From: Vitiosangium sp. GDMCC 1.1324
Lineage (GTDB): Bacteria; Myxococcota; Myxococcia; Myxococcales; Myxococcaceae
DNA: 64,000 nt
Direction: 5' to 3'
NCBI RefSeq assembly: GCF_003044305.1
Contig: NZ_PZOX01000005.1
Location: 515,493-579,492, forward strand
Positions 1 through 26,527 of the stretch are shown one piece after another; position 1 is the first letter of the stretch; each line of letters begins with the position of its first letter. The notes under the pieces were generated by a model. It made no database searches and was not told the DNA's origin. It saw only the letters and a list, made by a program, of their open reading frames with translations. The translations under genes were made by a program, and so were the position numbers.

Positions 1-3000
1 CCCGCCGAAGTAGTCCTTCGCCGGGGTGTAGGTCAGGTTCGGCGCAGTGCCAGAAAGCGTGCCGTGCGCGGGCGGAGCGACCACGGAGAAGGTCAGCGGA
101 GCCCCCAGGCGGCTCGAGGCCACCAGCGTCACCGCCACGGGCATATCCTCGTCCGTGGAGGCCACGGCGTCCGGAGCCGTCACCGTGCCGGGCTGGAGCC
201 GCACCACGCGCCCGCCCGGAATGCCGTTCACCGTGACGGACAGCAGATAGTGCCCCGGCGCGAGCCCGGGCGTGATGGCGCTCACCGAGGTGCTCGAGAA
301 CGCCGTGGGCGTCACCCGCGTGACAGCGCCCCCTCCCACGGGCATGAGCGACACCCAGGCGGGGAAGTCCGTGCCGGGAGAACTGGCCTTGCCACCACCC
401 GCCTCGGAGATCCCCCGGAAGCGGCTGCCACTCGCGACGAAGGGCGAGCCCTGGAAGAGGTCCGTGGGCAGGGTGACGGACGGGCGCCAGGCATCGCTCG
501 CGCCCACCGCGTCGTAGACCTCGTTCGCGGCGAGCGGAGTGGTTCCCCCACCGCCCAGCAGCAGCACGCGGCCCGAGGGCAGCGGCACGGCCACATGCGC
601 GTGCCGGCCCGCCGCCAGGGACACGGTGCCCACCGTCCAGCCGTTCGTCCGGGGCTCGTAGACCTCCAGCGAGGTGAGTCCGGCCCCCGAGGTGTCGCTC
701 CGGCCACCGGCCACCAGCGCCTGGCCCGACGGCAGCAGCGTGGCCGTGGCGGAGTCACGCGCCGTCGTGAGGTTGCCCGCGGCGCTCCAGGTGCCCGTGG
801 CCGGGTCATACCGCTCCGCCGAGGCGAGGAAGCTCCCCGAGGTGGTCCGGCCCCCGACCACCAGCACCTGCCCCGCGGCCAGGAGCACGCCGCCCGCTCC
901 CACGCGCGCCGTCGCGAGGCTCCCCGTGGGGCTCCAGGTGCCCGTGGCCGGGTCGTACACCTCCGCCGAGGCGAGCGCTCCCGCCGTCCCATTGCCCGCG
1001 GCCACCAGCACCTTGCCATTGGGCAGCGACAGGGCGATGTGCCCCTCGCGCGCCACGCTCAGGGCCCCCGTGGGGCTCCAGGTGCCCGTGCCCGGGTCAT
1101 ACACCTCCGCCGAGGCGAGCGGGACTCCCGCGTCATCCACGCCGCCGGTGACCAGGACCCGGCCATCGCGCAGGAGCGTCGCCGTCTGCCGCGAGCGCGG
1201 CACGCCCAGACTGCCCGTGGCGCTCCACGCATTGGCCTCGGGATCGTACTGCTCCACCACGGCGCTCGAGACGCCGGAGGCACTTCCCCCGGCCACCAGC
1301 ACCCGTCCGTTGGGCAGCAGCGTGACCGTGGCGCCCGTGCGCGGCACCGCCGGCCCGGCCACGGTGCTCGCGCTGGACGTCTCGGGCACGAACAGCTCCG
1401 TGGGGGCAACGGCCCCGCTGGAGGTCAAGCCCCCGACCACGAGCACCTTGCCCGAGGGCAGCAGGGTCGCGCTGGGGATGGAGCGGGCCGTCAGCAGGGC
1501 CCCCGACACGAGCCGGGTGGCGTTGGAGGGCTCGTAGATCTCCGCGCTGGTGGCGGTTTTGGAGCCTCCCATGATGAGCACCCGCCCATCGGGGAGCAGG
1601 AGCGAAGAGTGGGAGTAGCGCGCCACGGACATGAGCGGAGTCACGGTCCAGAGGGCCGCGGTGGGGTCGTAGACCTCGCCGCTGTTGGTGGCCATGAAAT
1701 AGAGGTACCCGTCGAAGCCGCCCACGAGCAGCACCTTGCCGTTGGGCAGCAGGGTCGCCGTGGCGAGGGCTCGCTTGTAGATGGTGTTCTTGGTGGTGGA
1801 CCAGGTGCCCGTGGCCGGGTCGTACAGCTCGCAGCTGGTGAGGGCCTGGTAGGTATCCGTGCCGAGCCCGCCCGCAACCAGGACCTTGCCATCGGGCAGC
1901 AACGTCGCCGTGGACATGCGCCGGGCCGTGGCGAGTCTGCCGGTGGCCGACCAGGTGGACGTGCTCGGATCGTACACGGTGGCCAGGGCGCTCACCGCGC
2001 CGTTGACGTCACCTCCCGCGACGAGCACCTTGCCATTGGCCAGCAGGACGGCCACGTGTCCGCTGTGCCGCTGGGGCATGTAGCCCGTGGAGGTCCAGGT
2101 CCCCGTGGCCGGGTCATACAGCTCAGCGATGTCCAGGCTGACGCTGACGATGCCTCCGGCGACGAGCACCCGGCCATCGGTGAGGACGGTCGCCGTGTGA
2201 TAGGTGCGGCTGGCCGTCATCGGGCTCGTGAGGGACCAGGTGCCCGTGGCGGGGTCATACAGCTCGGCGGTGGGCGTGCCCGTCGAGGGCGTATAGCCGC
2301 CGGTGACCAGGACCTTGCCGTTGGACAGCGTGGTCATCGTGTGCGCGAACCGCACCACGTTCATCGAACCGGTGGAGGACCAGGTGCCCGTGGCGGGGTC
2401 ATACAGCTCCGCCGCGGCGGAGGCGCCCGAGCCGGCGCGTCCGCCAACGGCGAGGACCTTGCCCCCAGGCAGCAGCGCCGTCGTGAACTCCGGGCGGCTG
2501 ACCGCCATGGTGCCGGTCGAGGACCAGCCCGGATCCACCACGAGGGGACCCGTCATTCCCTCCAGCCCGAGCACCAGTTCCACCGCCAGTGTGCGCTCCA
2601 CGAGCGCATAGCGCGCGGGCTCGCGGTGGGTGGCCACCACGCCCCGCAGCCGCGTCTCGCCCTGGCGCGCGAGGCCCCGGACATCCCGGACCACGCCGTA
2701 GTGCATGCGCAGCACCGGCACCTCCCGGGCATCGAGGAACTCGAGGTAGGACCCCGCGTCCCGCACCGCCACGACCCCCTCTGGCACCGTCACCTCGTAG
2801 CGGACGCGGTGCTCCCGGGTGCCCTCGGGCAGCACCACGTACTCCTCCACGCGCTGACTTCCCTGCCCCGCCATGCTCCACAGGTGCCCGGAGCCATAGA
2901 AGACGGCGCCCTCGAAGGTGCGCCGGGGAGCGCGCGCCCCACGGGTGTCCGCCTTCACCTGGAAGACGTGGCCCCGGGTGGACAGCGTCATCGCCTCCCC

Positions 3001-11557: not shown

Positions 11558-12232
11558 TCAGAAAGACTCGAGGAACGGTAGGTCCAGCCGTCCAGGCCCA
11601 GTCTCGTTCTCTCTCGAATCCGGCGTTTCGAATCCTGTAACACCTGCTCCAGGTCCGGGCCTCGGGCAGTTCACCGGCTGATAGGCCCCTCCATTCCCTG
11701 TGTACGCGTAGGTGTCCATGGTCCCGTGCCCATCGACGAAGCCAAAGAACCCGCTGCCGGACTTGGCGATCGCCAGGTACGTGCCGGGAGGCACGAACAG
11801 CGCGTCGTACCAGCCGAACCCATGCTTCCTGCAGACATGAGTGAAGGGAACCTGCGCCGGGAAGGAGGCTTGCACCGAGGCCACGTCCTCTTGCGTGATG
11901 CTGGCGAGCTGGTCGGGAGTGCACTTGCCACGATTCTGGCAGAGCGCCGAGTCCGGTCCGATGCGGATGACGATGAAGCCCGTGCCCACGCAGGAGATGC
12001 CGAGCCGTAAGCGGCCCACATCAGGCATGGAGATGACGCGCGTGTCGGGGTTGGTGCGGTGGTAGTCCGAGGCCAGGTACACCGGCGTGCCCGGCACGGT
12101 CGTTTCTCCCTGGCAGGGCCCGGGATAATCCCTGCTGCTGGCTGCCTGGGACGCGCTGCCTCCCAAGAGGGCGAGGACGCTCAGCCCTACCCGCGTGAGC
12201 TCCCTCCGCTTGGATGTCATGTTGGCTTTCAT
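11558..12232 (-). CDS. Secreted hypothetical protein (signal peptide, Cys-rich)
   Basis: MKANMTSKRRELTRVGLSVLALLGGSASQA is a signal peptide. Its N-terminal 75 aa, promoter and stop-region motif are duplicated at 16289-16828. Confidence 0.7.
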   Translation of the reverse strand: MKANMTSKRRELTRVGLSVLALLGGSASQAASSRDYPGPCQGETTVPGTPVYLASDYHRTNPDTRVISMPDVGRLRLGISCVGTGFIVIRIGPDSALCQNRGKCTPDQLASITQEDVASVQASFPAQVPFTHVCRKHGFGWYDALFVPPGTYLAIAKSGSGFFGFVDGHGTMDTYAYTGNGGAYQPVNCPRPGPGAGVTGFETPDSRENETGPGRLDLPFLESF

Positions 12233-12381
12233 TGGATCGACGCTCTCCTTTCGGCAGCGGGTGCTGCACTACCGTGGGTACGAGAGCGAGCAAGAATTGG
12301 ATGAAGGCCTTCTCACGGGCCGCGGAAGCAGCACGAAGAGCAGAGGAGGAAGCTCGGCTGCCATGTTGCGTGGAGGTCCGC
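12005..12381. repeat. Direct repeat copy 1 (about 377 bp; 5' end plus upstream region of secreted-protein gene)
   Basis: About 95% identical to 16451-16828 by manual alignment, with one 1-bp indel. Confidence 0.8.
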
Positions 12382-12410
12382 GTCCCACGGCACCGCCCCT
12401 TGTTCGGCGT

Positions 12411-12494
12411 ATCGGCGGCTGTCGCCGACAAATCGGCGGCTGTCGCCGACAAATCGGCGGCTGTCGCCGACAAATCGGCGACTGTCGCCGACAA
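12411..12494. repeat. Tandem array of four 21-bp units (ATCGGCGGCTGTCGCCGACAA)
   Basis: Four head-to-tail copies, the 4th with one G>A change. The array contains alternating half-sites TCGGCG / CGCCGA forming overlapping palindromes at about 10.5-bp spacing, in a divergent promoter region. Confidence 0.85.
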
Positions 12495-12753
12495 ATTGTG
12501 GCGGGTCACCGGATTGGGGCTGGCGCCGGTTCATTGGACAGCTCGAGCAAGCTGCTGGCTGTGCCCGTCGAGGCGGCGAGCTCGAATCCCGCCGAGCTGA
12601 GAGAGCCCGGCTTCGGCTCTGCCCCCAGTCAGCCCGGCGCGAGTCCACTGGCGCGCCCCGTGCAATGACTGGATTTCGCGCCGGCTGGCGCAGGGAGCAG
12701 TCCCCCCGGCAGTCACGCCCTCCACGTCGGCACCCTCTACACGGGAGAAATCA

Positions 12754-14415
12754 ATGTCGCGAGAACACAATCGTCCAGGAGTCCCGAGGTCTTCGAGGTT
12801 CGTGCGCTGGTCGTCGGCGCTGTGTGTCTTCCTTGGCGCATGCACCACTCAGGACGGTCTACCTGAAGCGAATCTCCAATCCTCGACCCAGGAGATCATC
12901 AACGGCACTCCGTACGAGGCGGAGAACAGCGGCTTCGTCATGATGGTCAGCAATGGCTCGCTCTGCAGCGCCACGTTGCTCAACAACGAGTGGGTGCTCA
13001 CCGCGAAGCATTGCAACGTCGTCGCGGGAGCGACGGCGTATATGGGCTCGCAGTCCCGCGGGGTGATTCAGGTGGTCAACCACCCGAACCTGGATGTCAC
13101 CCTGGCGCACCTGCAGAGCCCGATGAGCATGCGGAACTCGAGCAACGCATACGCCAGGGCGCTGCGCACCACGCCGCTCGCGGTGGGGGAAGCGGTGCAG
13201 TGCTTTGGCTACGGCCTCAACACCTTCGACGCGGGTGCTGGCACGCTGCGCACGGCGGCCCTGAGCCTCAGCAGCCTGACGGCGACCGAATACAACTTCG
13301 ACCGGAACGGCTCGGGCCAGGTGCAGTGGAAGGGGGACTCTGGCGGCCCCTGCATCGACAGCGAGGGCAGGGTCGTCAGCGTCGCGTCCTACTGCTGGTA
13401 CGGGAACAACGAGGTGTATTCCTGTGCCGTGGTGCGCTCCGATGTGTTCGCGAGCTGGGCGAATGACTACACCAACCTCCGGACCGGTGCCAGCTATCGC
13501 ATCCAGGTGAAGGCGGATGGCCGCTTCCTCCACGAGGATGGATGGGGTGACAAGTTGCTCAGCACGCGCTACCAGCCCAACGACGACTACACCCAGTTCA
13601 TCCTGGAGCCCAATGGCGAAGGCTGGCGGATCAAGGTGAAGGCGGATGGCCGCTTCCTCCACGAGGATGGATGGGGTGACAGGTTGGTCAGCACGCGCGT
13701 CCAACCCAACGATGATTTCACCGTGTTCATGTTCACTCCGTCCGGAGATGGGAGCTGGCGCATCTCTGTCAAGGCAGACGGCCTCTTCCTCCACGAGGAT
13801 GGATGGGGTGACAAGTTGCTCAGCACGCGCTACCAGCCCAACGATGACTTCACCCGGTTCTATCTGACGCGGGTCGACATCCCGGTGAACTTCGAGTTCG
13901 GGGATGCGCGCCGTACCACCTCCACCGGCGACTGGGCCGCCTTCAGCTACAAGTCCGAGTGCGCCAGCGGTGAGATGGTGGCCGGCCTGTCCCTCAACCC
14001 CACCTCGCGCAATACCCGCGTCGCGCTGTGCCGCGCCAGCGGTGACTCCCGCTTCCCGCACAACGGCTGCTACACCCGGCACTTCTCCTCCGGCGACAGC
14101 CGCGGAACCCTCGCCACCGGCGACTGGGATAACGGGTACTACAAGGGGGAGTGCGGCACGAACGAGTTCGTCGCCGGTGTAGCCCAGGACGCCGCCCATG
14201 GAATCACCGCCATGCTCTGCTGCCCCGGCACGGTGGCCCACAACTCCTGCGTCGCCCGCGTCTTCGACGGCCAGAATGGAGGCTGGAACCCCGCCTCGGG
14301 CGACTGGGACCCCGGGAATTGGAAGGGCGAGTGCGGTCCCGGCAGCTACACCGCGGGCCTCTCCCGCAACACCTCCACCGGCACGCCCCACGCGCTGCTC
14401 TGCTGCAATCCTTAA
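12754..14415 (+). CDS. Secreted trypsin-like (S1) serine protease lipoprotein with beta-trefoil (ricin-B-like) triple repeat and a novel C-terminal 3x Cys-rich repeat domain
   Basis: Lipobox FLGAC; catalytic His in TAKHC and Ser in GDSGGP. Three approx. 45-aa repeats (ADGRFLHEDGWGDKLLSTRYQPNDD...W) follow, then three repeats of GDW..G.ECG....AG.......LCC. Confidence 0.85.
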   Translation: MSREHNRPGVPRSSRFVRWSSALCVFLGACTTQDGLPEANLQSSTQEIINGTPYEAENSGFVMMVSNGSLCSATLLNNEWVLTAKHCNVVAGATAYMGSQSRGVIQVVNHPNLDVTLAHLQSPMSMRNSSNAYARALRTTPLAVGEAVQCFGYGLNTFDAGAGTLRTAALSLSSLTATEYNFDRNGSGQVQWKGDSGGPCIDSEGRVVSVASYCWYGNNEVYSCAVVRSDVFASWANDYTNLRTGASYRIQVKADGRFLHEDGWGDKLLSTRYQPNDDYTQFILEPNGEGWRIKVKADGRFLHEDGWGDRLVSTRVQPNDDFTVFMFTPSGDGSWRISVKADGLFLHEDGWGDKLLSTRYQPNDDFTRFYLTRVDIPVNFEFGDARRTTSTGDWAAFSYKSECASGEMVAGLSLNPTSRNTRVALCRASGDSRFPHNGCYTRHFSSGDSRGTLATGDWDNGYYKGECGTNEFVAGVAQDAAHGITAMLCCPGTVAHNSCVARVFDGQNGGWNPASGDWDPGNWKGECGPGSYTAGLSRNTSTGTPHALLCCNP

Positions 14416-14493
14416 CAACACATCCGTATCGAGGAACCCAATCCCCATTCCGGCTCAGATGAGCCCGGCACATCGAAACTCACGAGGAGACCC

Positions 14494-16317
14494 ATGAACG
14501 TTTCCCCCTTCTGTTCGATTCGAGCATCCCTCGCGGCGGCCTTGCTGCTCCTGTCCGCCTGTCAGCCCCCCGAGTCCCCCGAGCCCGGCGTCGAGTCCGC
14601 GCTGCCTGGGACGGGCGGGGCCAGCGGCACGAGCGAGGAGGTGCGCACCGTGGTCCAGGCCGTCGACATCCCCTCCAACTACGACTCCGGCATCTGGGCC
14701 ATTCCCAGCGAGGGAAACCTCTACGCGGACCGGCTGTATGGCGTGAGCGCCCAGTCCTGCGCCGATCTGTGCAGCGCGAGGCAGGACTGCACCGGCTTCT
14801 ACGCCTTCACCGATTGGGATACCTGCCAGCTCTATGGCGCGCAGGCCGAGACCGCCGGCCGTATCGGGCCCTGGAACAACATCAAGATGTACTGGAAGCG
14901 CAAGAGCGTGAATGCGCAGCAGTACGCCTCGGGCATCTGGGCCGTCCCCAACGAGGGGTACATCTCGGACACGCTGTATGGGTACACGCCCGCCCAGTGC
15001 TCGCAGCTCTGCGAGTCCAAGGCCGATTGCACCGGTTTCTACGCGTTCACCGACAGGCTGCAGTGCCGCCTCCACGGCCCGGCCTCCGAGAAGTCCGCCA
15101 CCAACGGCCCGTGGACGAACCTCATGGAGTACCAGCGCAAGCGCGCGACCCGGGCATTCCTCGTGGATTTGAAGGTCCTCACCACCTCCAGCGGCGGGAA
15201 CGAGTTCTGGAGCGAGGCGCATGCCCGCAACGTGCTCGCCGAGGCGACGAAGCTGATGCAGGGCGAGGTGGCCTTCAGCCTGGCGACCTACACGCGCGTC
15301 GTCGATGACGCGCGTTACAACGGCAACTCGCAGTACGACATCCTCCTGGCCTATGGGAACACGACGCAGAGCGGCCGGATGACCGTCTACGTCTCCAGCC
15401 CAAATACCTACGACTCCGCCGGTGTGGCCTGGCAGGGCGCGCAGTTCGCGCCGTACTTCGTGATGCGCTCGCGGCAGAACAATGGCAGCGCGAGCGACCT
15501 CGACGAGACGGCCCGCATCTTCCTGCATGAGTTCGGGCACAACCTGAACTTCTCGCACGGGGCCGCCACCGAGCAGGACCCCTTCCACACGGACTGGTAC
15601 TGGAACGTCGCCCAGGCCCGGCAGGTCGTCACCCGGCTCGCGGACTGGTCCCGGCTCTACCTCATGGGGACCAGCCCGAACATCAAGACCGACAGCCTCG
15701 ACTGTGGTTGGGGCTGGGGTGTCCCCACCCAAGGAGCCCTGACGGAGCCGCAGTTCTACGCGCCCACGGCGCTGGCGTGTGCCGCGCGATGCGCCCAGAC
15801 CTCGGAATGCGCGAGCTCCCACTGGCGTGATGATGGGGCATGCGTCCTCTATGGCGCAGACAGCATCGGCCATACCGGCATGGGCTGGTCCAACGTGGAG
15901 GTGTGCTGGAAGAAGTCCGATGGGACGGACCTGGCGCTCGCGCGCCCCACGCTCCAGTCCAGCACCGATTGGGGCGGCGCCGCGTCGCGCGCCGTGGACG
16001 GCAACATGGATGGCAACTTCAACGCGGGCTCCGTCACCCACACCGCCACCGAGTCCCAGCCCTGGTGGCAGGTCGACCTCCAGAGCTCCCGGTTCATCAA
16101 CAAGGTCGTGGTCCGCAACCGCACCGACTGCTGCTCCGACCGGCTGAACAACTTCAAGGTCCTGGTCTCGGAGGATGGGAGCACCTGGCAGGCGTACAGC
16201 TTCCCGAACGTGGCGCCGCAGCAGACCGAGTTCCCGGTGGGGAGGACCGGCCGCTTCGTGAAGGTGCAGCTCGACGGCTCGGGCGTCCTCAGCCTGGCCG
16301 AAGTGAAGGTGCTCTAG
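14494..16317 (+). CDS. Secreted zinc metalloprotease lipoprotein with PAN/apple-like domains and C-terminal F5/8 type C (discoidin) domain
   Basis: Lipobox LLSAC, a repeated Cys pattern C..C..DCTGFYAF.....C (PAN-like, about 3 copies), HEFGHNLNFSH (HExxH), and a C-terminal discoidin-like segment WWQVDL...RFVKV. Confidence 0.85.
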   Translation: MNVSPFCSIRASLAAALLLLSACQPPESPEPGVESALPGTGGASGTSEEVRTVVQAVDIPSNYDSGIWAIPSEGNLYADRLYGVSAQSCADLCSARQDCTGFYAFTDWDTCQLYGAQAETAGRIGPWNNIKMYWKRKSVNAQQYASGIWAVPNEGYISDTLYGYTPAQCSQLCESKADCTGFYAFTDRLQCRLHGPASEKSATNGPWTNLMEYQRKRATRAFLVDLKVLTTSSGGNEFWSEAHARNVLAEATKLMQGEVAFSLATYTRVVDDARYNGNSQYDILLAYGNTTQSGRMTVYVSSPNTYDSAGVAWQGAQFAPYFVMRSRQNNGSASDLDETARIFLHEFGHNLNFSHGAATEQDPFHTDWYWNVAQARQVVTRLADWSRLYLMGTSPNIKTDSLDCGWGWGVPTQGALTEPQFYAPTALACAARCAQTSECASSHWRDDGACVLYGADSIGHTGMGWSNVEVCWKKSDGTDLALARPTLQSSTDWGGAASRAVDGNMDGNFNAGSVTHTATESQPWWQVDLQSSRFINKVVVRNRTDCCSDRLNNFKVLVSEDGSTWQAYSFPNVAPQQTEFPVGRTGRFVKVQLDGSGVLSLAEVKVL

Positions 16318-16678
16318 GCGGGCCCCGCGGCTCCAGAGCCCGGGCGGCGCGGTGGGGGCCGCCCGGGAGCTCGAAGCGCGCGTCCACCTTCTCCACCTCG
16401 TGGTTGTCTCCGGGTTGGACGGATTGCGACGGTAGGTCCAACCGTCCAGGCCGTAAGCGGCCGACATCAGGCATGGAGATGACGCGCGTGTCGGGGTTGG
16501 TGCGGTGGTAGTCCGAGGCCAGGTACACCGGCGTGCCCGGCACGGTCGTTTCTCCCTGGCAGGGCCCGGGATAATCCCTGCTGCTGGCTGCCTGGGACGC
16601 GCTGCCTCCCAAGAGGGCGAGGACGCTCAGCGCTACCCGCGTGAGCTCCCTCCGCCTGGATGTCATGTTGGCTTTCAT
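16289..16678 (-). pseudogene. Truncated paralog of the 11558-12232 secreted-protein gene (internal-deletion derivative)
   Basis: The first 75 aa are almost identical to gene 11558-12232 (one K>R change). It then joins to a 23-bp motif matching the stop region of the full-length gene (CGGTAGGTCCA(A/G)CCGTCCAGGCC) and reads through antisense to the 3' end of the metalloprotease gene. Confidence 0.5.
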
Positions 16679-16828
16679 TGGATCGACGCTCTCCTTTTGG
16701 CAGCGGGTGCTGCACTACCGCGGGTACGAGAGCGAGCAGGAATTGGATGAAGGGCTTCTCAAGGACCGTGGAAGCAGCACGGAGAGCAGAGGAGGAAGCT
16801 CGACTTGCCATGTTGCGTGGAGGTCCGC
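16451..16828. repeat. Direct repeat copy 2 (about 378 bp)
   Basis: Matches 12005-12381. It lacks the 21-bp tandem array found beyond copy 1. Confidence 0.8.
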
Positions 16829-17055
16829 ACGAGCAGCAAGACTCCGAGTGAGAGCCCGCGGCAACCGCGTCCAGACCCGCATCAGTCCGGGGACACTATT
16901 ATTTCTGGAATGAACTCGATTCCTGATTGATTCGGAAAAGCTGGTTTTCGTTTGACGGAGCGTGAAAACATTGGGAATCCTCTTCTCGGCCACTGCTCCG
17001 TGGTCTGTGCGCCACCGTGGTGCGCTCACCCCCCAAAGAAACCGAGGACAATCCC

Positions 17056-17484
17056 ATGAAGAGCTTCCGCCTCCTGAGCACGCTGTGCGTTCTGTTCCCC
17101 GCCCTGGCGTGGAGCGGCCCGGTCCACAACGTCTGGTCGACGTCGCCGTTCTTCATCAAGGACGGGAACAACACCTACAACGCCACCTCCGGCAACAGCG
17201 CGTTGAGCTGGAACGAGTCCACCGGCTATGCGTTCGCCAATGCCCGCGCCACCAGCAGCCTCGGTGACGTCTACGAGTTCCAGCTCGTCTCCACGACGGC
17301 CACCACGACGAGCTACGAGATCGTCGGCACCTGGAACGTCACCAAGAACGGCAGCCCGCTGTGCACCAACTGCACGGGCTCGGCCTACGGGCTGAACATG
17401 GGGGTTGGCAGCTACTTCAAGATCTACGTCAGCGGTGAGACCTATGGCCTCAGCGCTTACGTCACGAGCGTCTTCAACTACTGA
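17056..17484 (+). CDS. Small secreted protein (hypothetical)
   Basis: MKSFRLLSTLCVLFPALAWSGP is a signal peptide, followed by a Ser/Thr/Asn-rich mature part. A GAGGA RBS and an upstream AT-rich region are present. Confidence 0.65.
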   Translation: MKSFRLLSTLCVLFPALAWSGPVHNVWSTSPFFIKDGNNTYNATSGNSALSWNESTGYAFANARATSSLGDVYEFQLVSTTATTTSYEIVGTWNVTKNGSPLCTNCTGSAYGLNMGVGSYFKIYVSGETYGLSAYVTSVFNY

Positions 17485-17561
17485 GACGGGCTCCTCGGCG
17501 GTGCGCGCGTGGGCCGGGACGCGCGCACCCGCTCGCGCGTGCTGTATAAATGCGCTCCGAC

Positions 17562-18542
17562 ATGAGCACGTCCACCTCGCCTCTCCTGCCCCCCGCGAAG
17601 CTGCCCGGTCCCAACGAACCCTGCTGGTGCGGAAGTGGGACGAAGTACAAGAAGTGCCACCGGGGCGAGGACTCGCAGGCCCGCGCACCCGTGCCCGCCT
17701 CGCGGCGTGTGCAACCCGGAGTGGTGAGCCCGCGCCGCCCGGTGCCTGCTCACATCCCTCGGCCCGACTACGCGGAGACAGGCCGTCCCGGTCCCGGAGT
17801 CCTGGGCGATCCGACGACCCGCCTGACGCGGATGCGGAGGGCCTGCCGCGCCGCCGCCGAGGTCCTCCAGGTGACGGGCGCCGCCGCACAGCCGGGCATC
17901 ACGACGGACGCGCTCGATGCCCTCGCGCACGAGGAGTACATCCGCCGCGGAGGCTACCCGAGCACGCTGGGCTACCACGGGTTCCCCAAGTCCCTCTGCA
18001 CCTCGGTCAACGAGGTCATCCTCCACGGCATCCCGGACAGCCGGGCCCTGGAGGATGGGGACATTGTCAACCTCGACATCACCATCTACCTCGATGGGAT
18101 GCACGGCGACTGCTCAGCGACCTTCCCCGTGGGGAAGATCGACGCGGCCTCCGAGCAGCTGCTCCGGGTGACCCGCGAGTGCCTGATGCTGGGCATCGAG
18201 GCGGTACGTCCGGGCCTCCCCATCAACGTCATCGGCCGGGCCATCGAGGCCCACGCCAAACGTCATGGCTATGGCGTGGTGAACGCATACTGCGGGCACG
18301 GCATCGGCGAGGTGTTCCACCGCTCGCCGCAGGTCTGCCATGCGTTCGATCCCCACGCGACCGACATCATCGAGGAGGGCATGTTCTTCACCATCGAGCC
18401 CATGCTCACGATGGGCGCCATCCACCATCGGGATTGGGATGATGGGTGGACGGTGGTCACCGCGGATGGCAGGCGCTCGGCGCAGTTCGAGCACACCATC
18501 TTCGTGACGCGCGATGGCGCGGAGATCCTGACCCAGGTGTAA
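17562..18542 (+). CDS. map: Type I methionine aminopeptidase with N-terminal SEC-C-like zinc-binding motif
   Basis: Conserved MetAP metal ligands (D..D..H..E..E), and an N-terminal CWCGSGTKYKKCH. The ATG at 17550 overlaps a TATAAA box, so the 17562 start is preferred. Confidence 0.9.
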   Translation: MSTSTSPLLPPAKLPGPNEPCWCGSGTKYKKCHRGEDSQARAPVPASRRVQPGVVSPRRPVPAHIPRPDYAETGRPGPGVLGDPTTRLTRMRRACRAAAEVLQVTGAAAQPGITTDALDALAHEEYIRRGGYPSTLGYHGFPKSLCTSVNEVILHGIPDSRALEDGDIVNLDITIYLDGMHGDCSATFPVGKIDAASEQLLRVTRECLMLGIEAVRPGLPINVIGRAIEAHAKRHGYGVVNAYCGHGIGEVFHRSPQVCHAFDPHATDIIEEGMFFTIEPMLTMGAIHHRDWDDGWTVVTADGRRSAQFEHTIFVTRDGAEILTQV

Positions 18543-18551
18543 CGCCTGGCG

Positions 18552-18815
18552 TCAGTTCAGGGGCTCTGTCCCTCCTGGCCGACGCAGCCTGTAGAGCTCT
18601 TTCACGAAGGAGACGAAGCTGCGGGGCCCCTCGCACACGAGTGTGGCGATCAAGAAGAACCCCAGAGCGATAAACGGGCCTGAGTGGTACCCGATGAAGC
18701 CGCCCGCGAAGAATCCTCCCACACTCATCAGAGGGTGGAAGGAGAACCCGAGCGTGGCTCCGACAACAGCGCCGACAAGCGTGCAAAGCAACGCCATGAA
18801 TTCAAAGACGTTCAT
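18552..18815 (-). CDS. Small membrane protein (hypothetical)
   Basis: MNVFEFMALLCTLVGAVVGATLGF... has three hydrophobic helices. It lies downstream of and co-oriented with the flotillin gene. Confidence 0.45.
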   Translation of the reverse strand: MNVFEFMALLCTLVGAVVGATLGFSFHPLMSVGGFFAGGFIGYHSGPFIALGFFLIATLVCEGPRSFVSFVKELYRLRRPGGTEPLN

Positions 18816-18948
18816 GGCGCGGTGCCTTTCAAGATGCACGCCATGACGTGCGCTCCTCCCGAGAAGCAGCAAGAGTCGAGGAGCGCGCCGCCAGACTGAC
18901 ATCCGACAGCGCGTCGAGGCGACACGCTGTCACTCCCGCCAGCGAGGG

Positions 18949-20703
18949 CTACGCGGCCGGGTCCTTCTTCGGCGCCGTGGGCACCTGCAGGCCCGCCGAG
19001 CGCGCCAGGCCCATCACGCCCTCCACCGCCGCCGCGATGTAGCCGAACGGATTGGCTCCATCCACGGCCGTCACGTGCACCTCGCCCATCTTCTGCTGGA
19101 ACGCCGCCGCCACCTGCGGCAACTGCTGCGCCAGCACCAGTTGGATCGACTCCGGCGACAGCGTGTTGTCGATCTCCCGCAGCGCCCTCGCCCTCGCCAG
19201 CTCCGGGTCCTGCGTGATGCGGGCCTTGCGCGCATCCATCTCCGCCATCGCCAGTTCCGCCTCGGCAATGGCACACCGCGCCTCCGCCACCTTCGCCTGC
19301 GCCCTCGCCCGCTCCGCCTCCTGCTGCAACACCGCCATCATCGCCGCGTGCCGCGCCGTCTGCGCCTGCTGCTCCTGGTGCAGCTTCTCCAGATCCGCCT
19401 CCGCCTTCACCACCGCCATCTGCCGCTCATGCGCCAGGCGCGCCGCCTCCGCCTCCTGCTCCAGCTTCAGCCTCTCCAGCTCCGCCTGCGCCTTCGCCAC
19501 CGACAGCGCCCGCTCATTCGTCAGCTTCGCCGTCTGCGCATGCTGCTCCAGCTTCAGCCTCTCCAGCTCCGCCTGGGACCTCGACGCCGCCAGCCCCCGC
19601 TCCTGCGCCAGCTTCGCCTCCGCCATCCGCCGCTCGGCCTCGAGCTGCGCCAGCTTCTGCGCCTCCTCCGCCTTCGTCTTCTGCTCCCTCACCTCCAGCT
19701 CGGCGTTCAGCTTCGCCAGCGCCGTCTCGCGCTCCAGCGTCACCTGCGCCTGCCGCGTGCTCCGCTCCTTCGCGACCCGCGCCTCCTCCACGCGCGACTC
19801 GATCGCCAGCGCCTCCAGCTTCGCCTGCTCCTCCGCCTCCTGCCGCTTGTGCCGGACCTCCTCCTCCGTCGCCAGCCGCGTCAGCGAAATCTGCCGCTCC
19901 GCCTCCGCCTCCTCCTTCCGGATGAAGCGCTCCTTGGCCAGCTCCGCCTCGCGCGCCACCCGCTCCTGCTCCTCCCGGAAGCGCGCCTGCATGTTCGCGA
20001 ACACCGTCTCCGACAGCACCCGCACGTCCTGGATCTCAATCGTGTCCAGGACCACGCCCCACCCCGTGGCCGCCCGGTCCTCCGGCCTCCCCTTCCCCGA
20101 CACCACCGGCGCGATCTCCCGCATCAGCTCCGTGGCGATTCCCTCCTTGCGCTTGGAGAGGCACTCCTCCACCGACAGGTTCGCCACCAGCCGCCGCACC
20201 GCTCCCACGAACATCTCCCGCAGCAGCTCCGCCAGCTTCTGCTGCGCCCGCTCCGGGAAGGAGAAGTTCAGCATCCGGAAGGCCACCAGCGGATCGACAA
20301 TCCGGTACACCGCCAGGCCCGTCACCTGCACGCCCACCTTCTCGCTCGTCACCTGGTCCGCGGTGAACTGCAGCCGCTGCACGCTCGTGGGGACGATCGC
20401 CACCGCGTCCCCCGGCAGCTTGAAGCACGAGGCCCCCTGCCCGCTCACCTCGCGCACCCGGCCCCGGCGCATGTGGATGAGGAACTCGCTCGGCCTCGCG
20501 GTGACCAGGCCCCACTTCTTCATCTTCTCCGGGTCCTCCTCCGGCTTGCCCGCCCTCCACCCGCCCTGGTACCGCCGCAGGTCCTCCCCGCCCCCCTGCG
20601 GCTCGCCCCCGCCACTGCGCACCAGCTCCGACCGCCCTCCCACCGACAGCTCCATGGCCCCCACGGCGTTCAGCTTCATTGCCCGCTTCTCATTCGTGCT
20701 CAT
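18949..20703 (-). CDS. Flotillin-like SPFH/Band-7 domain protein
   Basis: An SPFH domain followed by a long EA-rich coiled coil. The start is taken at MSTNEKRAMKLNAV, since the upstream extension of the listed ORF is not protein-like. Confidence 0.85.
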   Translation of the reverse strand: MSTNEKRAMKLNAVGAMELSVGGRSELVRSGGGEPQGGGEDLRRYQGGWRAGKPEEDPEKMKKWGLVTARPSEFLIHMRRGRVREVSGQGASCFKLPGDAVAIVPTSVQRLQFTADQVTSEKVGVQVTGLAVYRIVDPLVAFRMLNFSFPERAQQKLAELLREMFVGAVRRLVANLSVEECLSKRKEGIATELMREIAPVVSGKGRPEDRAATGWGVVLDTIEIQDVRVLSETVFANMQARFREEQERVAREAELAKERFIRKEEAEAERQISLTRLATEEEVRHKRQEAEEQAKLEALAIESRVEEARVAKERSTRQAQVTLERETALAKLNAELEVREQKTKAEEAQKLAQLEAERRMAEAKLAQERGLAASRSQAELERLKLEQHAQTAKLTNERALSVAKAQAELERLKLEQEAEAARLAHERQMAVVKAEADLEKLHQEQQAQTARHAAMMAVLQQEAERARAQAKVAEARCAIAEAELAMAEMDARKARITQDPELARARALREIDNTLSPESIQLVLAQQLPQVAAAFQQKMGEVHVTAVDGANPFGYIAAAVEGVMGLARSAGLQVPTAPKKDPAA

Positions 20704-20938
20704 TGGCGCACCCTCCGGAAGTCCCGGACTCCCGGAATTGCAGCCTGCTGGCCAACGCCCCGCTGCCCTGAAATCGCGCACTTGGCCACTCGGGGTGTTC
20801 CAGGCTGGCGCACCTGCTCCAGAGTGGAGCGCTCCGCTCCGGTACAACCCGTGATAGAGGACTGAATCGGTCTGATTCGCGGTTGATACAGCCTGGGGCG
20901 CCCCGCCCTTATGTCAGCTTGACCGGGAGGGTCCCGAT

Positions 20939-20965
20939 TTTATAATTGACCGGTCCAGTCCACAT
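20939..20965 (+). promoter_or_regulatory. Palindromic element (TTGACCGGTCCAGTC core, contains GACCGGTC palindrome) upstream of iscS; loose resemblance to IscR type-1 site
   Basis: Sequence reads ATAATTGACCGGTCCAGTCCACAT, about 17/25 matches to the ATASYYGACTRwwwYAGTCRRSTAT consensus. It lies about 90 bp upstream of the iscS start. Confidence 0.25.
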
Positions 20966-21055
20966 TAGGTGTGCCCAGGTAGGACATCCTAGGACCTCGC
21001 GGGGTTACCGGCACCCGCGGCGAGGGGACGAACAGTTGCCCGGAAGGTTTACCGA

Positions 21056-22421
<1,366 letters not shown>

Positions 22422-22531
22422 CCCCGTCCCGGGCCCTCCCCTGGTTGGAGGGCAGGCGGGCACCCGACCCCGGCACGGTTGCCGGGCAACGGACCCGGTG
22501 ACAAGCGTTCATAAGGGAGTAGCGAGTACCC

Positions 22532-22930
22532 ATGGCCTACAGCGACAAAGTCATCGACCACTACGAGAACCCCCGCAATGTCGGCACGCTCGACAAGGCC
22601 GACCCCAACGTGGGCACCGGTCTGGTGGGGGCTCCCGCGTGCGGCGACGTGATGCGCCTGCAGCTGAAGATCACCGACGAGGGCATCATCGAGGATGCCA
22701 AGTTCAAGACCTTCGGGTGCGGCTCGGCCATCGCCTCCAGCTCGCTGGTGACCGAGTGGGTCAAGGGCAAGACGGTGGACGAGGCGATGACCATCTCCAA
22801 CAAGGACGTGGCCCGCGAGCTGGCGCTGCCGCCGGTGAAGATCCACTGCTCGGTGCTGGCCGAGGACGCCATCAAGGCCGCCATCGACGACTTCAAGAAG
22901 AAGCGCGCGGCGCGGCAGCAGAAGGCCTGA
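22532..22930 (+). CDS. iscU: Fe-S cluster assembly scaffold IscU
   Basis: MAYSDKVIDHYENPRNVG...GAPACGDVM...CGSAIASSSL is canonical IscU. Confidence 0.95.
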   Translation: MAYSDKVIDHYENPRNVGTLDKADPNVGTGLVGAPACGDVMRLQLKITDEGIIEDAKFKTFGCGSAIASSSLVTEWVKGKTVDEAMTISNKDVARELALPPVKIHCSVLAEDAIKAAIDDFKKKRAARQQKA

Positions 22931-22952
22931 GCAGGACCGAAGGAGGAGGCGC

Positions 22953-23357
22953 GTGATGAGCGAGCAGGCGACAACCCAGACGAGCCAGACGCAGACGGCG
23001 CCTGCCCCCACGGCCGCGAAGCCGGCGGCACGGGGCATCACGCTGCACGACACCGCGGTGGAGCAGCTCAAGAAGCTGCTGGCCGAGCGGCAGACGCCCG
23101 AGGCGGGCTTGCGCGTCGCGGTGCGCGGCGGCGGGTGCTCGGGGCTGGCGTACGTGATGGAGTGGGCGGAGAAGCCGCGCGAGAAGGACAAGATCTTCGA
23201 GCGGGATGGCGTGCGCGTGTTCGTGGACCCGAAGAGCTACCTGTACCTGCTCGGCACGGAGATCGCGTACGAGTCCACGCTGATGGCCTCCGGCTTCAAG
23301 CTGAACAACCCCAACGTGAAGAGCGCGTGCGGCTGCGGCGAGAGCTTCTCCGTCTGA
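22953..23357 (+). CDS. iscA: Fe-S cluster insertion protein IscA/HesB family
   Basis: C-terminal CGCGESFSV and an internal GGGCSG motif. Confidence 0.9.
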   Translation: MMSEQATTQTSQTQTAPAPTAAKPAARGITLHDTAVEQLKKLLAERQTPEAGLRVAVRGGGCSGLAYVMEWAEKPREKDKIFERDGVRVFVDPKSYLYLLGTEIAYESTLMASGFKLNNPNVKSACGCGESFSV

Positions 23358-23441
23358 GGGGCTCGCTCATCCCAGGTTGGCTCCGGGGCTCGGCCGAGGA
23401 AAGCCGAGCCCCTTCGTTTTGCCCCGGAAAGGGGACCCGAA

Positions 23442-24067
23442 GTGAAGTGCTGGAACTGTGAGAAGGACACGGCCGGGCGCCCCTTCTGCCCGGCGTGTGG
23501 AAAGATCGCGGCCCGTCCCCCGGGAGCCACCCACTTCGACGTGTTCGGCCTGCCCCGGGCGTACGACGTGGACCTGCCCGCGCTGGAGAAGCAGTACCGG
23601 GAGCTGTCGCTGCAGCTCCACCCGGACCGGTTCGCCCAGGCGGAGGCACGCGAGCGCCGGCTGTCCCTGGAGCAGACCACGGCGCTCAACGAGGCCTTCA
23701 AGACGCTCAAGGACGGCACGAAGCGGGCCTTCTACCTGCTCAAGCTGCTCGGGGTGGACCTGGAGCGGGAGGACGCCGGCACGCAGAAGGACATGCCCCT
23801 CGAGTTCCTCGAGGAGGTGATGGAGCTGCGCGAGGCGCTCGACGAGGCCATGGAGGCCCGGGACACCGAGCGGGCCCGGAAGATGGCCTCGGACGTGGCG
23901 AGCCGCCGCAAGGCCGCCCTCCAAGAGGCCGTGGACACGCTGCGCACCCTGGAAAAGGGCGTGCCGGTCGAATCGTCGGTGAAAAAGGCATCGCACGCCC
24001 TGGGACGGGTGCGGTACTTCACGCGCTTCCTCGAACAGGTCGACGCGTTCGAGGAGGAGATGCTGTC

Positions 24068-24071
<4 letters not shown>
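23442..24071 (+). CDS. hscB: Co-chaperone HscB (J-domain) with N-terminal tetracysteine zinc-finger
   Basis: [32 protein letters not shown] is a J-domain with an HPD tripeptide. N-terminal CWNC-x11-CPAC. Confidence 0.85.
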
Positions 24072-25912
<1,841 letters not shown>

Positions 25913-25913
25913 C

Positions 25914-26291
25914 GTGCCCAAGGTCCACTTCAAGAGCCCCCTGGATGACGTCACCGTGGAGGTGACGACGGGGACCACCCTGCTGGACGCCGCCGAGAAG
26001 GCCGGCGCCCAGGTGGGTCACTCCTGCGGCGGAGTCTGCGCCTGCTCCACCTGCCATATCTGGGTGCGCAAGGGCCTCGAGTCGCTCTCCGAGCAGACGG
26101 ACCAGGAGATGGACCGGCTGGACATGGGCTTCGACGTGCGCCCGTACTCCCGCCTGTCCTGCCAGAGCGAGATCGGGAATGAGGACATCCTCGTGGAGAT
26201 TACCGAGGAGTCCCTCTCGGCCTTCATGGACGAGAACCCCGCCGTCCGGCGCCGGCTCGAGTCCGAAGGGAAATGGCCGTTGAAGAAGTGA
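25914..26291 (+). CDS. fdx: [2Fe-2S] ferredoxin Fdx (ISC type)
   Basis: Cys ligands at CGGVCACSTCH ... LSCQ. Confidence 0.9.
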   Translation: MPKVHFKSPLDDVTVEVTTGTTLLDAAEKAGAQVGHSCGGVCACSTCHIWVRKGLESLSEQTDQEMDRLDMGFDVRPYSRLSCQSEIGNEDILVEITEESLSAFMDENPAVRRRLESEGKWPLKK

Positions 26292-26376
26292 GGTTGAAAC
26301 AACTGCTTGACGGGGACGGTTCAGGCATCTATACACCGCACCCGTCGACGCAACGCACCGCCGAGACGCACCGCCT

Positions 26377-26460
26377 GCCCAGGTGGTGGAATTGGTAGAC
26401 ACACTAGATTCAGGGTCTAGCGCCTGCAAGGGCATGGAGGTTCGAGTCCTCTCCTGGGCA
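26377..26460 (+). tRNA. tRNA-Leu (anticodon CAG), long variable arm; no encoded CCA
   Basis: Acceptor stem GCCCAGG/CCTGGGC, T-loop GGTTCGAGTCC, and anticodon loop TTCAGGG by manual folding. Confidence 0.9.
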
Positions 26461-26468
26461 CTGAAAAA

Positions 26469-26504
26469 GGCTCCGACTGAAAAGTCGGGGCCTTTTTCTT
26501 TTTC
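26469..26504. terminator. Rho-independent, probably bidirectional, terminator
   Basis: GGCUCCGAC-ugaaaa-GUCGGGGCC hairpin followed by UUUUUCUUUUU. The reverse strand also has a T-run, and convergent genes lie on both sides. Confidence 0.6.
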
Positions 26505-26527
26505 AGCACTCCGCTGTCCCCTCGGCC

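What the first reader, a model, noticed from the sequence alone, without database searches (positions are those of the whole stretch)
12005..16828. Four-kb secreted-protease cassette bracketed by about 378-bp direct repeats that duplicate a gene's promoter and 5' end
The segments 12005-12381 and 16451-16828 are about 95% identical direct repeats. Each contains the upstream region plus the first approx. 230 bp (signal peptide and 75 aa) of a secreted-protein gene on the minus strand. Copy 1 belongs to an intact 224-aa gene. Copy 2 belongs to a 129-aa derivative in which a 23-bp motif from the stop region of the intact gene (CGGTAGGTCCAGCCGTCCAGGCC at 11575-11597, matched at 16428-16450) is fused directly to the 5' segment. 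This is equivalent to a clean approx. 407-bp internal deletion. Between the repeats lie exactly two genes, the S1 protease/lectin and the PAN-metalloprotease/discoidin lipoproteins. The architecture suggests either a duplication-plus-insertion event that delivered the protease pair into a secreted-protein gene family, or a recombination-prone amplifiable unit. No transposase or integrase is present.
Basis: seen in the sequence. Interest (0 to 1): 0.55.

Follow-up and report, generated by a model that had tools for sequence, protein, structure and literature searches.

The report
Gene-stub repeats flanking inserted protease genes
Two protease genes sit between a working secreted-protein gene and a dead partial copy of that gene's start, which is an ordinary scar of DNA insertion and rearrangement in a large myxobacterial genome, not a new kind of mobile element.

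Summary
R1 (12004-12381) and R2 (16450-16828) are direct repeats, 366/379 identical (96.6%). A 24-bp piece of the intact gene's 3' tail (11575-11598) abuts R2 (16429-16452) through a 3-nt GCC overlap, leaving 405 bp (in frame) missing. The window is from Vitiosangium sp. GDMCC 1.1324. R holds the promoter region, ribosome-binding site, signal peptide and first 76 codons of a secreted beta-sandwich protein (224 aa, no Pfam family). Copy 2 keeps about a quarter of that fold and reads antisense through the neighbour's hairpin, so it is a gene remnant.

The DNA between the repeats is not a conserved cassette. The PAN-metalloprotease gene, with its own upstream region, occurs alone at 96.5% nt identity in an Archangium genome. 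The S1 protease gene occurs alone at 94.7% in Cystobacter fuscus. In the window the S1 gene is a 1722-bp insertion into the other gene's leader. The repeats bracket this module to within 31 and 59 bp.

Best reading: a scar of insertion with duplication, probably a single crossover of a circularised fragment or an equivalent repair event. No transposase, integrase, plasmid or phage signal was found. The amplifiable-unit idea could not be tested. Interest is low to moderate.

The parts
11558..12232 (-). Intact secreted-protein gene 'sp224' (224 aa from the first ATG; NCBI aa). It has a signal peptide, a conserved beta-sandwich domain of about 150-160 aa, and a 31-aa tail that looks non-native.
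11575..11598 (.). T1: a 24-bp segment in the 3' tail of sp224 (codons for PGRLDLP) that recurs next to R2.
11599..12003 (.). D: 405 bp of sp224 (135 codons, most of the folded domain) that is absent from copy 2.
12004..12381 (.). R1: direct repeat copy 1, made of the first 229 coding bp of sp224 plus 149 bp upstream (ribosome-binding site and promoter region).
12382..12412 (.). 31-bp linker of unknown origin between R1 and the start of homology with the Archangium PAN-MP module.
12411..12496 (.). 21-bp tandem array (4.1 copies of ATCGGCGGCTGTCGCCGACAA, with a near-palindromic core). It is part of the PAN-MP upstream region; L010 has about 2 copies.
12649..12664 (+). Sigma-54-like -24/-12 element, TGGCGCGCCCCGTGCA, inside a 76-bp block that is 93% identical to L010.
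   Evidence: 2 matches in the window against 0.45 expected; suggestive only
12706..14427 (+). S1 insertion: 1722 bp carrying the trypsin-like / ricin-lectin lipoprotein gene (12754-14415). It lies exactly between L010 positions 9907 and 9908, in the PAN-MP leader.
   Evidence: 94.7% nt and 91.7% aa identity to Cystobacter fuscus CP043492 (L011) over 12741-14427
14494..16317 (+). PAN-MP gene: lipoprotein with PAN/Apple domains, an HEFGHNLNFSH zincin-like region and a discoidin (F5/8-C) domain.
   Evidence: 96.5% nt and 95.4% aa identity to Archangium violaceum GCA_042865265.1 (L010) over 14442-16369
16339..16367 (.). GC-rich hairpin (10-bp perfect stem) after the PAN-MP stop codon, present also in L010 and L006. 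Homology with L010 ends at 16369.
   Evidence: the fold is not more stable than shuffles, z=-1.2
16370..16428 (.). 59-bp segment of unknown origin between the module and T2.
16429..16452 (.). T2: copy of T1 (23/24) fused to R2 through a GCC overlap.
16450..16828 (.). R2: direct repeat copy 2.
16289..16678 (-). 129-aa ORF: the remnant of sp224 (residues 1-77 plus PGRLDLP) followed by read-through, antisense across the hairpin and the last 29 bp of PAN-MP.
16829..17484 (+). Unique flank after R2: a comparatively AT-rich upstream region and the small secreted-protein gene 'sp155' (likely ATG at 17056).

Best explanation
The feature is a rearrangement scar. A mosaic DNA segment of about 4.05 kb (12382-16428) lies immediately upstream of the secreted-protein gene sp224. 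It consists of the PAN-metalloprotease gene with its own regulatory region, into whose leader the S1 protease gene had been inserted. On its far side lies a partial second copy of sp224's promoter and 5' end (R2), joined to the insert through 24 nt copied from sp224's 3' tail (T2).

Shown:
- The repeat, the junctions and the 3-nt microhomology.
- The independent history of both protease genes.
- The near coincidence of the repeat edges with the module edges.
- The absence of mobile-element genes.
- Copy 2 retains only about a quarter of the folded domain.

Inferred:
- The structure arose by insertion with duplication. Most simply, a circularised DNA fragment carrying the module and a partial sp224 5' segment integrated by one RecA-type crossover inside the resident sp224 5' region (Campbell type). 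This automatically yields gene - R1 - insert - T - R2 - old flank.
- Under this view T is a short templated filler at the circle-closure or illegitimate joint, not evidence of a separate 405-bp deletion.
- The 129-aa ORF is a non-functional remnant that keeps a promoter, ribosome-binding site and signal peptide.
- Because R1 and R2 share a 168-bp perfect run, they could recombine to delete the module, which would restore sp224 next to sp155, or to amplify it. This was not observed.
For: - Repeat and junction anatomy.
- Source organism, and only two family members in it.
- PAN-MP with its 21-bp repeat region and a conserved 76-bp promoter block is found alone, between unrelated genes, at 96.5% nt identity in L010. 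Homology runs 12413-12509, 12630-12705 and 14442-16369.
- S1 is found alone at 94.7% nt identity in L011, with homology limited to 12741-14427.
- PAN-MP homologues in L006 and L007 also lack S1 and sp224.
- R1 ends 31 bp or less from the module's left limit, and T2 starts 59 bp from its right limit. Insertion with duplication predicts this. An unrelated local copy event would produce it only by chance.
- The locus lies in lineage-specific DNA. Collinearity with the closest relatives (L008, L009, about 90% nt) starts at map (17561) and nothing to its left is shared.
- Precedent: in E. coli, donor DNA with one-sided homology mostly integrated by a single crossover of a circular molecule lacking part of the homologous fragment. 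This produced 109-950-bp duplications of the homologous locus flanking the foreign DNA (PMC3240628).
- Remnant status of copy 2: it keeps residues 1-77 of a beta-sandwich spanning about 40-190. All 3 coding differences are non-synonymous, and L77P hits a conserved residue. The ORF then runs antisense through the neighbour's hairpin and 3' end.
Against: - No genome with an empty site (sp224 directly next to sp155) or with the same filled site could be retrieved, so the ancestral state is inferred and not seen.
- The model needs a donor in which an sp224-like 5' segment lay next to the module. None of the four related loci shows that.
- No plasmid or phage relative of the insert was found, and the circular intermediate is hypothetical.
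- Natural uptake or circularisation of DNA in this organism is assumed.
- The 3.4% divergence between the repeats is uneven: 3/229 in the coding part against 10/149 upstream, Fisher p=0.007. This could mean later gene conversion or a more complex history.
- 31 + 59 bp at the insert edges remain unexplained.
Confidence: 0.5

Rival explanations
1. Local templated patch. The protease module was already resident between sp224 and sp155. Later, a replication template-switch or break-repair event copied two nearby pieces (24 bp, then 378 bp, joined at GCC) from 4.4-4.9 kb away into the intergenic region downstream of PAN-MP. On this view the repeats have nothing to do with how the proteases arrived.
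For: The T|R joint has a 3-nt microhomology, and the two pieces come from the same nearby gene in the same order and orientation, as expected for short-range template switching. Only about 400 bp needs to be created. No donor with an sp224-like segment beside the module is needed, and none was found.
Against: It requires chance to explain why the copied segment ends within 31 bp of the left limit of the independently inherited module. There is no microhomology at the other two joints.
Confidence: 0.25
2. Old tandem paralogues. sp224 was tandemly duplicated, as secreted-protein genes often are. The protease DNA later landed between the two copies. The second copy lost 405 bp by microhomology-mediated deletion, and gene conversion kept the 5' parts similar.
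For: The in-frame 405-bp gap with GCC microhomology fits a slippage deletion. Lower divergence in the coding part than upstream could reflect a conversion tract.
Against: It needs three or more separate events and an insertion exactly at the duplication joint. No other family member shows tandem copies in five related loci. T1 lies in a low-GC3 tail that looks non-native, so the copied unit is itself recent.
Confidence: 0.12
3. Functional derivative. R2 is kept because its promoter drives a new small secreted peptide (signal peptide + 45 aa + new tail), or an antisense transcript that reads into the 3' end of PAN-MP and modulates it.
For: The promoter region, ribosome-binding site, ATG and signal peptide are intact, the T|R joint is in frame, and NCBI annotates the ORF.
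Against: It retains only 2-3 strands of an 8-strand sandwich. The tail has no homologue. All three coding changes are non-synonymous, including a proline at a conserved leucine. Staying in frame has a 1-in-3 chance. No orthologue of the short form appears among 50 family hits outside this genome.
Confidence: 0.08
4. Assembly artefact: a mis-join or collapsed repeat in a draft assembly.
For: The source is a draft contig (719 kb) from one assembly.
Against: The copies differ at 13 positions and each has unique, sharp flanks, including a composite T|R joint. Assemblers do not invent such structures.
Confidence: 0.03

Closest known systems
Insertion-duplication (Campbell-type single-crossover integration), as seen experimentally with one-sided-homology donors in E. 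coli (PMC3240628)
   Same: Heterologous DNA is flanked by direct repeats of a few hundred bp of a resident gene. One repeat is continuous with the intact gene and the other is a truncated stub. The duplication size (378 bp) falls within the reported 109-950 bp. No transposase is needed.
   Different: This is a natural chromosome with no plasmid backbone or marker. The insert is a mosaic of two native-type protease genes. An extra 24-nt templated piece sits at the joint. The circular intermediate and the donor are inferred, not observed.
Homology-facilitated illegitimate recombination (HFIR) during uptake of foreign DNA
   Same: One end is anchored by homology and the other is joined illegitimately with 0-3 nt of microhomology. 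It delivers genes that have no homologue at the target site.
   Different: Classical HFIR replaces or deletes recipient DNA and does not duplicate the anchor. Competence or another uptake route is not known for this organism (my knowledge, not tested).
Microhomology-mediated template switching (FoSTeS/MMBIR-type complex duplications) and templated filler DNA at end-joining junctions
   Same: A composite joint built from two nearby, non-adjacent segments in the same orientation, with a 3-nt microhomology.
   Different: Those mechanisms are documented mainly in eukaryotes and in stressed E. coli. Only one of the three joints here shows microhomology.
Composite transposons / IS26-type translocatable units / integron cassettes
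   Same: Cargo genes are bracketed by direct repeats that could excise the cargo as a circle.
   Different: The repeats are fragments of a host gene, not insertion sequences. There is no transposase, integrase, terminal inverted repeat or target-site duplication.

Membership tests
Insertion-duplication (single-crossover) product | Direct repeats that are copies of a segment of a resident gene flank DNA that is foreign to that gene | tested here: met
   R1 and R2 are the 5' end and upstream region of sp224 and flank 12382-16428.
Insertion-duplication (single-crossover) product | One repeat continues into the intact gene and the other is a truncated stub | tested here: met
   224-aa gene against a 129-aa remnant lacking 135 codons.
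Insertion-duplication (single-crossover) product | The intervening DNA has an evolutionary history separate from its flanks | tested here: met
   PAN-MP module at 96.5% nt in L010 and S1 at 94.7% nt in L011, both in unrelated neighbourhoods. The homology limits lie within 31 and 59 bp of the repeat edges.
Insertion-duplication (single-crossover) product | An empty site (gene + single repeat + old flank) exists in relatives, or a circular donor is identifiable | not testable with these tools
   The closest relatives retrieved (L008, L009) lose synteny left of map. The sp155 relative L012 is only 1 kb long and has a different upstream region. There is no plasmid or phage match.
Composite transposon / IS-bounded unit | Flanking repeats are insertion sequences that encode a transposase and have terminal inverted repeats | tested here: not met
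   The repeats encode a signal peptide and a domain fragment. Pfam finds no transposase or integrase from 1 to 20 kb, and no inverted repeats lie at the insert ends.
Integron cassette / genomic island | A site-specific integrase, attC or att sites, or a tRNA target | tested here: not met
   There is no integrase domain. The only tRNA is at 26377-26461, inside the conserved block. attC was not modelled explicitly.
Amplifiable unit / unstable tandem-duplication substrate | Direct repeats long and similar enough for RecA recombination | tested here: met
   378 bp at 96.6% identity, with a longest perfect run of 168 bp at 12018-12185.
Amplifiable unit / unstable tandem-duplication substrate | Copy-number or presence/absence variation of the bracketed segment among reads or strains | not testable with these tools
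   Only one assembly is available, and there are no reads.
Processed or truncated pseudogene (gene remnant) | Loss of an essential part of the fold, no conservation of the short form, and relaxed substitution pattern | tested here: met
   It keeps residues 1-77 of a domain spanning about 40-190. The short form is found only in this genome. The substitution count is 3 non-synonymous to 0 synonymous, including L77P at a conserved site; the numbers are small.

The most novel reading that the evidence does not exclude
The R1-module-T-R2 structure could be a working, transposase-free 'translocatable unit'. RecA recombination between the gene-stub repeats would release a circle (module + one stub). 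That circle could re-enter any genome carrying an sp224-type 5' end by a single crossover. Together with the gene-precise insertion of S1 into the PAN-MP leader, this would point to a homology-guided way of shuffling single secreted-enzyme genes among Archangiaceae genomes.
Probability: 0.06. Interest if true: 0.6.

Novelty: new member of a known kind. Interest (0 to 1): 0.25.

Why it matters
This locus is a clear, dated example of how a very large myxobacterial genome assembles its secreted-protease repertoire. The genes arrive as single-gene pieces joined by illegitimate and homologous recombination, without mobile-element genes, and they leave gene stubs behind. It also bears on annotation. 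The 125/129-aa 'hypothetical protein' is most likely a remnant. The S1 and PAN-metalloprotease genes probably form a recent operon under one inherited, sigma-54-like promoter. It opens no new mechanism and does not bear on a long-standing question.

Tried and rejected
- A scan of species-representative genomes with sp224 found only 35-68% identical homologues in MAGs, with unrelated neighbours.
- Exact-sequence look-ups of window ORFs (sp224, map, LysR, the 125-aa form) failed, probably because of start-codon choice or because the assembly is missing from the index.
- Stigmatella homologues (L004, L005) are not syntenic.
- A consistent sp224-protease association was considered, because L005 has two M35 proteases nearby. 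It was rejected, since L001-L004 show none.
- sp224 homologues were looked for downstream of PAN-MP in L006, L007 and L010, as a possible donor arrangement. None was found.
- The 31-bp and 59-bp linkers, the right flank of R2 and segment D were searched against the window and all loci. Only chance-level hits appeared.
- No homology was found between the upstream part of R and the region upstream of the L010 module.
- No flanking repeats surround the module in L010 or S1 in L011.
- The Rfam scan gave nothing above chance.
- The sigma-70 promoter scan found none, and the terminator scan was uninformative.
- Plasmid and phage collections gave no match.
- The base-composition profile shows only a mild GC dip (0.59-0.70 against a window mean of 0.686), which does not decide for or against foreign origin.
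- The metagenome scan with sp155 found one 1-kb contig whose upstream region differs.
- Calibrating horizontal transfer by comparing protease identity with map identity was abandoned, because relatives carry map paralogues.


Full report
**1. The observation**

The direct repeat exists and is far beyond chance. R1 (12004-12381) aligns with R2 (16450-16828) over 379 columns with 366 identities (96.6%). That is 12 substitutions and one 1-bp indel, with BLAST E=6e-180.

A 24-bp segment, T, occurs at 11575-11598 and again at 16429-16452, matching 23/24. T2 overlaps the first three bases of R2 (GCC), and GCC also begins R1. The T|R joint in copy 2 therefore carries a 3-nt microhomology. The piece missing relative to copy 1 is 11599-12003, exactly 405 bp (135 codons, in frame).

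Local alignment against shuffled controls finds no further similarity on either side: left of T, right of R, or between the missing piece and the flanks of copy 2. The edges are sharp. No other copy of R or T exists in the 64-kb window. Otherwise the description is accurate.

**2. What the repeated gene is**

The window comes from Vitiosangium sp. GDMCC 1.1324. The 224-aa ORF (11558-12232, minus strand) is 100% identical to a 220-aa hypothetical protein of that strain. The 129-aa ORF (16289-16678, minus strand) is annotated there as a 125/129-aa hypothetical protein. The S1 and PAN proteins match exactly.

The 224-aa protein (sp224) has no Pfam or NCBIfam family. About 50 relatives were found, mostly from Stigmatella and soil metagenomes. 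They share a signal peptide and a conserved domain of about 160 aa. After that domain they carry variable C-terminal parts: Cys-rich DUF4215-like repeats or a B-lectin domain.

The last 31 residues of sp224 have no counterpart in the family. They are predicted disordered and have GC3 of 0.52, against 0.80-0.94 for genes here. The 3' end of sp224 therefore looks like a read-through into formerly non-coding DNA, and T lies inside this tail.

Copy 2 keeps the upstream 149 bp, the ribosome-binding site, the signal peptide and residues up to 77. That is two to three strands of the sandwich. It then has PGRLDLP from T and 46 unrelated residues read antisense across the hairpin and the last 29 bp of the PAN gene.

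The three coding differences between the copies are all non-synonymous (K10R, G20A, L77P). L77P replaces a residue conserved in the family. I conclude that copy 2 is a gene remnant.

**3. What lies between the repeats**

One is a trypsin-like protease with a ricin-type trefoil and C-terminal Cys repeats (12754-14415). The other is a protein with PAN/Apple domains, an HEFGHNLNFSH zincin-like region and a discoidin domain (14494-16317). Both have lipobox-like signals.

They are not a conserved pair.
- A 95%-identical PAN protein in an Archangium violaceum assembly (L010) sits between an unrelated 295-aa gene and a P450 gene, with no S1 and no sp224.
- A 92%-identical S1 protease in Cystobacter fuscus (L011) sits between a GON-domain gene and a small gene next to a sigma-54 activator, with no PAN gene.
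- Two more distant PAN homologues (L006, L007) also lack both neighbours.

At the nucleotide level, the window matches L010 over three stretches:
- 12413-12509, the 21-bp tandem repeats.
- 12630-12705, at 93%.
- 14442-16369, at 96.5%.

The window matches L011 over 12741-14427 at 94.7%. Reading the junctions shows that window 12706-14427 (1722 bp, the S1 gene with its ribosome-binding site) is inserted exactly between L010 positions 9907 and 9908, in the leader of the PAN gene. Since three of three other PAN loci lack S1, the insertion is the derived state.

The PAN upstream block contains a sigma-54-like -24/-12 element, TGGCGCGCCCCGTGCA, at 12649-12664. It is one of two matches in the window against 0.45 expected. 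It lies downstream of the 21-bp array, which has 4.1 copies here and about 2 in L010. S1 and PAN probably now form one operon under that inherited promoter. This is an inference.

**4. Relation of the repeats to the module**

Homology with L010 starts no later than 12413, which is 31 bp after R1 ends. It stops at 16369, inside a conserved GC-rich hairpin and 59 bp before T2. No part of R resembles the region upstream of the L010 module. The repeats therefore bracket an independently inherited module almost exactly.

The whole region left of map (17561) has no counterpart in the closest relatives found. From map rightwards, about 11.5 kb is collinear with them at about 90% nt identity. The feature thus sits in lineage-specific DNA at a synteny break.

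Pfam finds no transposase or integrase from 1 to 20 kb. The only tRNA is far away, inside the conserved block. The plasmid and phage collections give no match, and there is no Rfam family.

**5. Mechanism**

The order is T-D-R1-insert-T-R2-flank. This is exactly what a single crossover produces when a circular molecule carrying insert + T-R recombines with a chromosome carrying T-D-R-flank.

The same outcome has been seen experimentally. In E. coli, donor DNA with homology at one end integrated mostly by a single crossover of a circular molecule lacking part of the homologous fragment. This gave 109-950-bp duplications of the target flanking the foreign DNA (PMC3240628).

Under this reading, T is a short templated filler at the illegitimate closure joint (GCC microhomology), not the trace of a separate 405-bp deletion. 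The in-frame outcome is then a one-in-three accident.

I rate this, or an equivalent break-repair event that inserted the module with duplication of the adjacent 5' gene segment, at about 0.5.

The rivals:
- Main rival (0.25): the module was already resident, and a template-switch event later copied T and R into the intergenic region downstream. This needs no special donor. But it has to treat the match between the end of R1 and the module edge as coincidence.
- Ancient tandem paralogues split by a later insertion (0.12). This needs more events.
- A maintained function for the 129-aa ORF, or for an antisense transcript from R2 (0.08). This is not excluded, but nothing supports it.
- Assembly error (0.03). 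This is unlikely given 13 differences and unique composite joints.

The divergence between the copies is uneven: 3/229 coding against 10/149 upstream, Fisher p=0.007. This could reflect a conversion tract or a crossover point. I could not resolve it.

**6. Stability**

The repeats share a perfect 168-bp run at 12018-12185. From general knowledge of RecA-dependent recombination, this is enough for loop-out deletion or unequal sister exchange. Deletion would leave an intact sp224 next to sp155. Amplification would multiply the protease module. Neither can be tested from one assembly.

**7. Comparison with known systems, and novelty**

The structure behaves like an insertion-duplication product and meets the three testable criteria for one. 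It fails the tests for composite transposons, integron cassettes and tRNA-linked islands. Partial gene duplicates that flank acquired DNA are a known kind of scar, so this is a new example and not a new kind.

The more interesting by-products are the gene-precise nesting of S1 into the PAN leader and the high identity (95-96.5% nt) of single protease genes found in different neighbourhoods in different Archangiaceae genomes. I could not show that this reflects horizontal transfer rather than rearrangement. The housekeeping calibration was confounded by map paralogues.

**8. Verdict**

Interest is 0.25.

Noticed in passing
window 12411-12496 (and L010 9737-9796): A 21-bp tandem array, ATCGGCGGCTGTCGCCGACAA, with 4.1 copies and a near-palindromic core TGTCGCCGACA. 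It lies about 150 bp upstream of a sigma-54-like promoter. The Archangium orthologous region has only about 2 copies, so copy number varies between genomes. It may be an array of activator-binding sites.
   Followed up: partly
window 12649-12664: A sigma-54-type -24/-12 match, TGGCGCGCCCCGTGCA, inside a 76-bp block that is 93% conserved with L010. It is one of 2 matches in 64 kb (0.45 expected). It would drive S1 and PAN-MP as one operon.
   Followed up: partly
window 12706-14427: The S1 protease gene is a clean 1722-bp insertion into the 5' leader of the PAN-metalloprotease gene relative to Archangium (L010 9907/9908). Its right end coincides with the end of homology to Cystobacter fuscus. 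No target duplication or flanking repeat is visible.
   Followed up: yes
window 11558-11653: The last 31 codons of the 'intact' 224-aa gene have GC3 of 0.52, are predicted disordered, and replace the Cys-rich or lectin C-terminal parts seen in all longer homologues. The intact gene is itself 3'-truncated or rearranged.
   Followed up: partly
window 17561-29050: Collinear at about 90% nt identity with Archangium violaceum CP043493 and a metagenome contig (map, flotillin-like gene, iscS-nifU-hscBA-fdx cluster). Nothing left of 17561 is shared, so this is a synteny breakpoint immediately upstream of map.
   Followed up: partly
window 13498-13860 and 13910-14336: The S1 protease contains three ~130-bp repeats (ricin beta-trefoil lobes, 82-89% nt identical to each other). 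These are followed by three ~190-bp repeats encoding a GDW...(Y/W)KGECG Cys motif that has no Pfam family.
   Followed up: no
window 16339-16367: A 10-bp perfect GC stem (CCCGGGCGGC / GCCGCCCGGG) after the PAN-MP stop codon is conserved in L010 and L006. Its predicted stability is not above shuffled controls in this GC-rich context (z=-1.2).
   Followed up: partly
window 735-1832 and 2240-2394: A short motif (about 12-16 nt) recurs many times in and around a 287-aa ORF (674-1537) that has no Pfam hit. This suggests an internally repetitive gene at the left end of the window.
   Followed up: no
L011 8773-9859 (Cystobacter fuscus): The GON-domain gene just upstream of the S1 orthologue carries a ~594-bp internal tandem duplication at 91-97% identity.
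   Followed up: no
whole window (source strain): The source strain, Vitiosangium sp. GDMCC 1.1324, is the one used for published bacterial gasdermin structural work. I did not look for a gasdermin locus in the window, and none of the genes examined in 1-20 kb resembled one.
   Followed up: no
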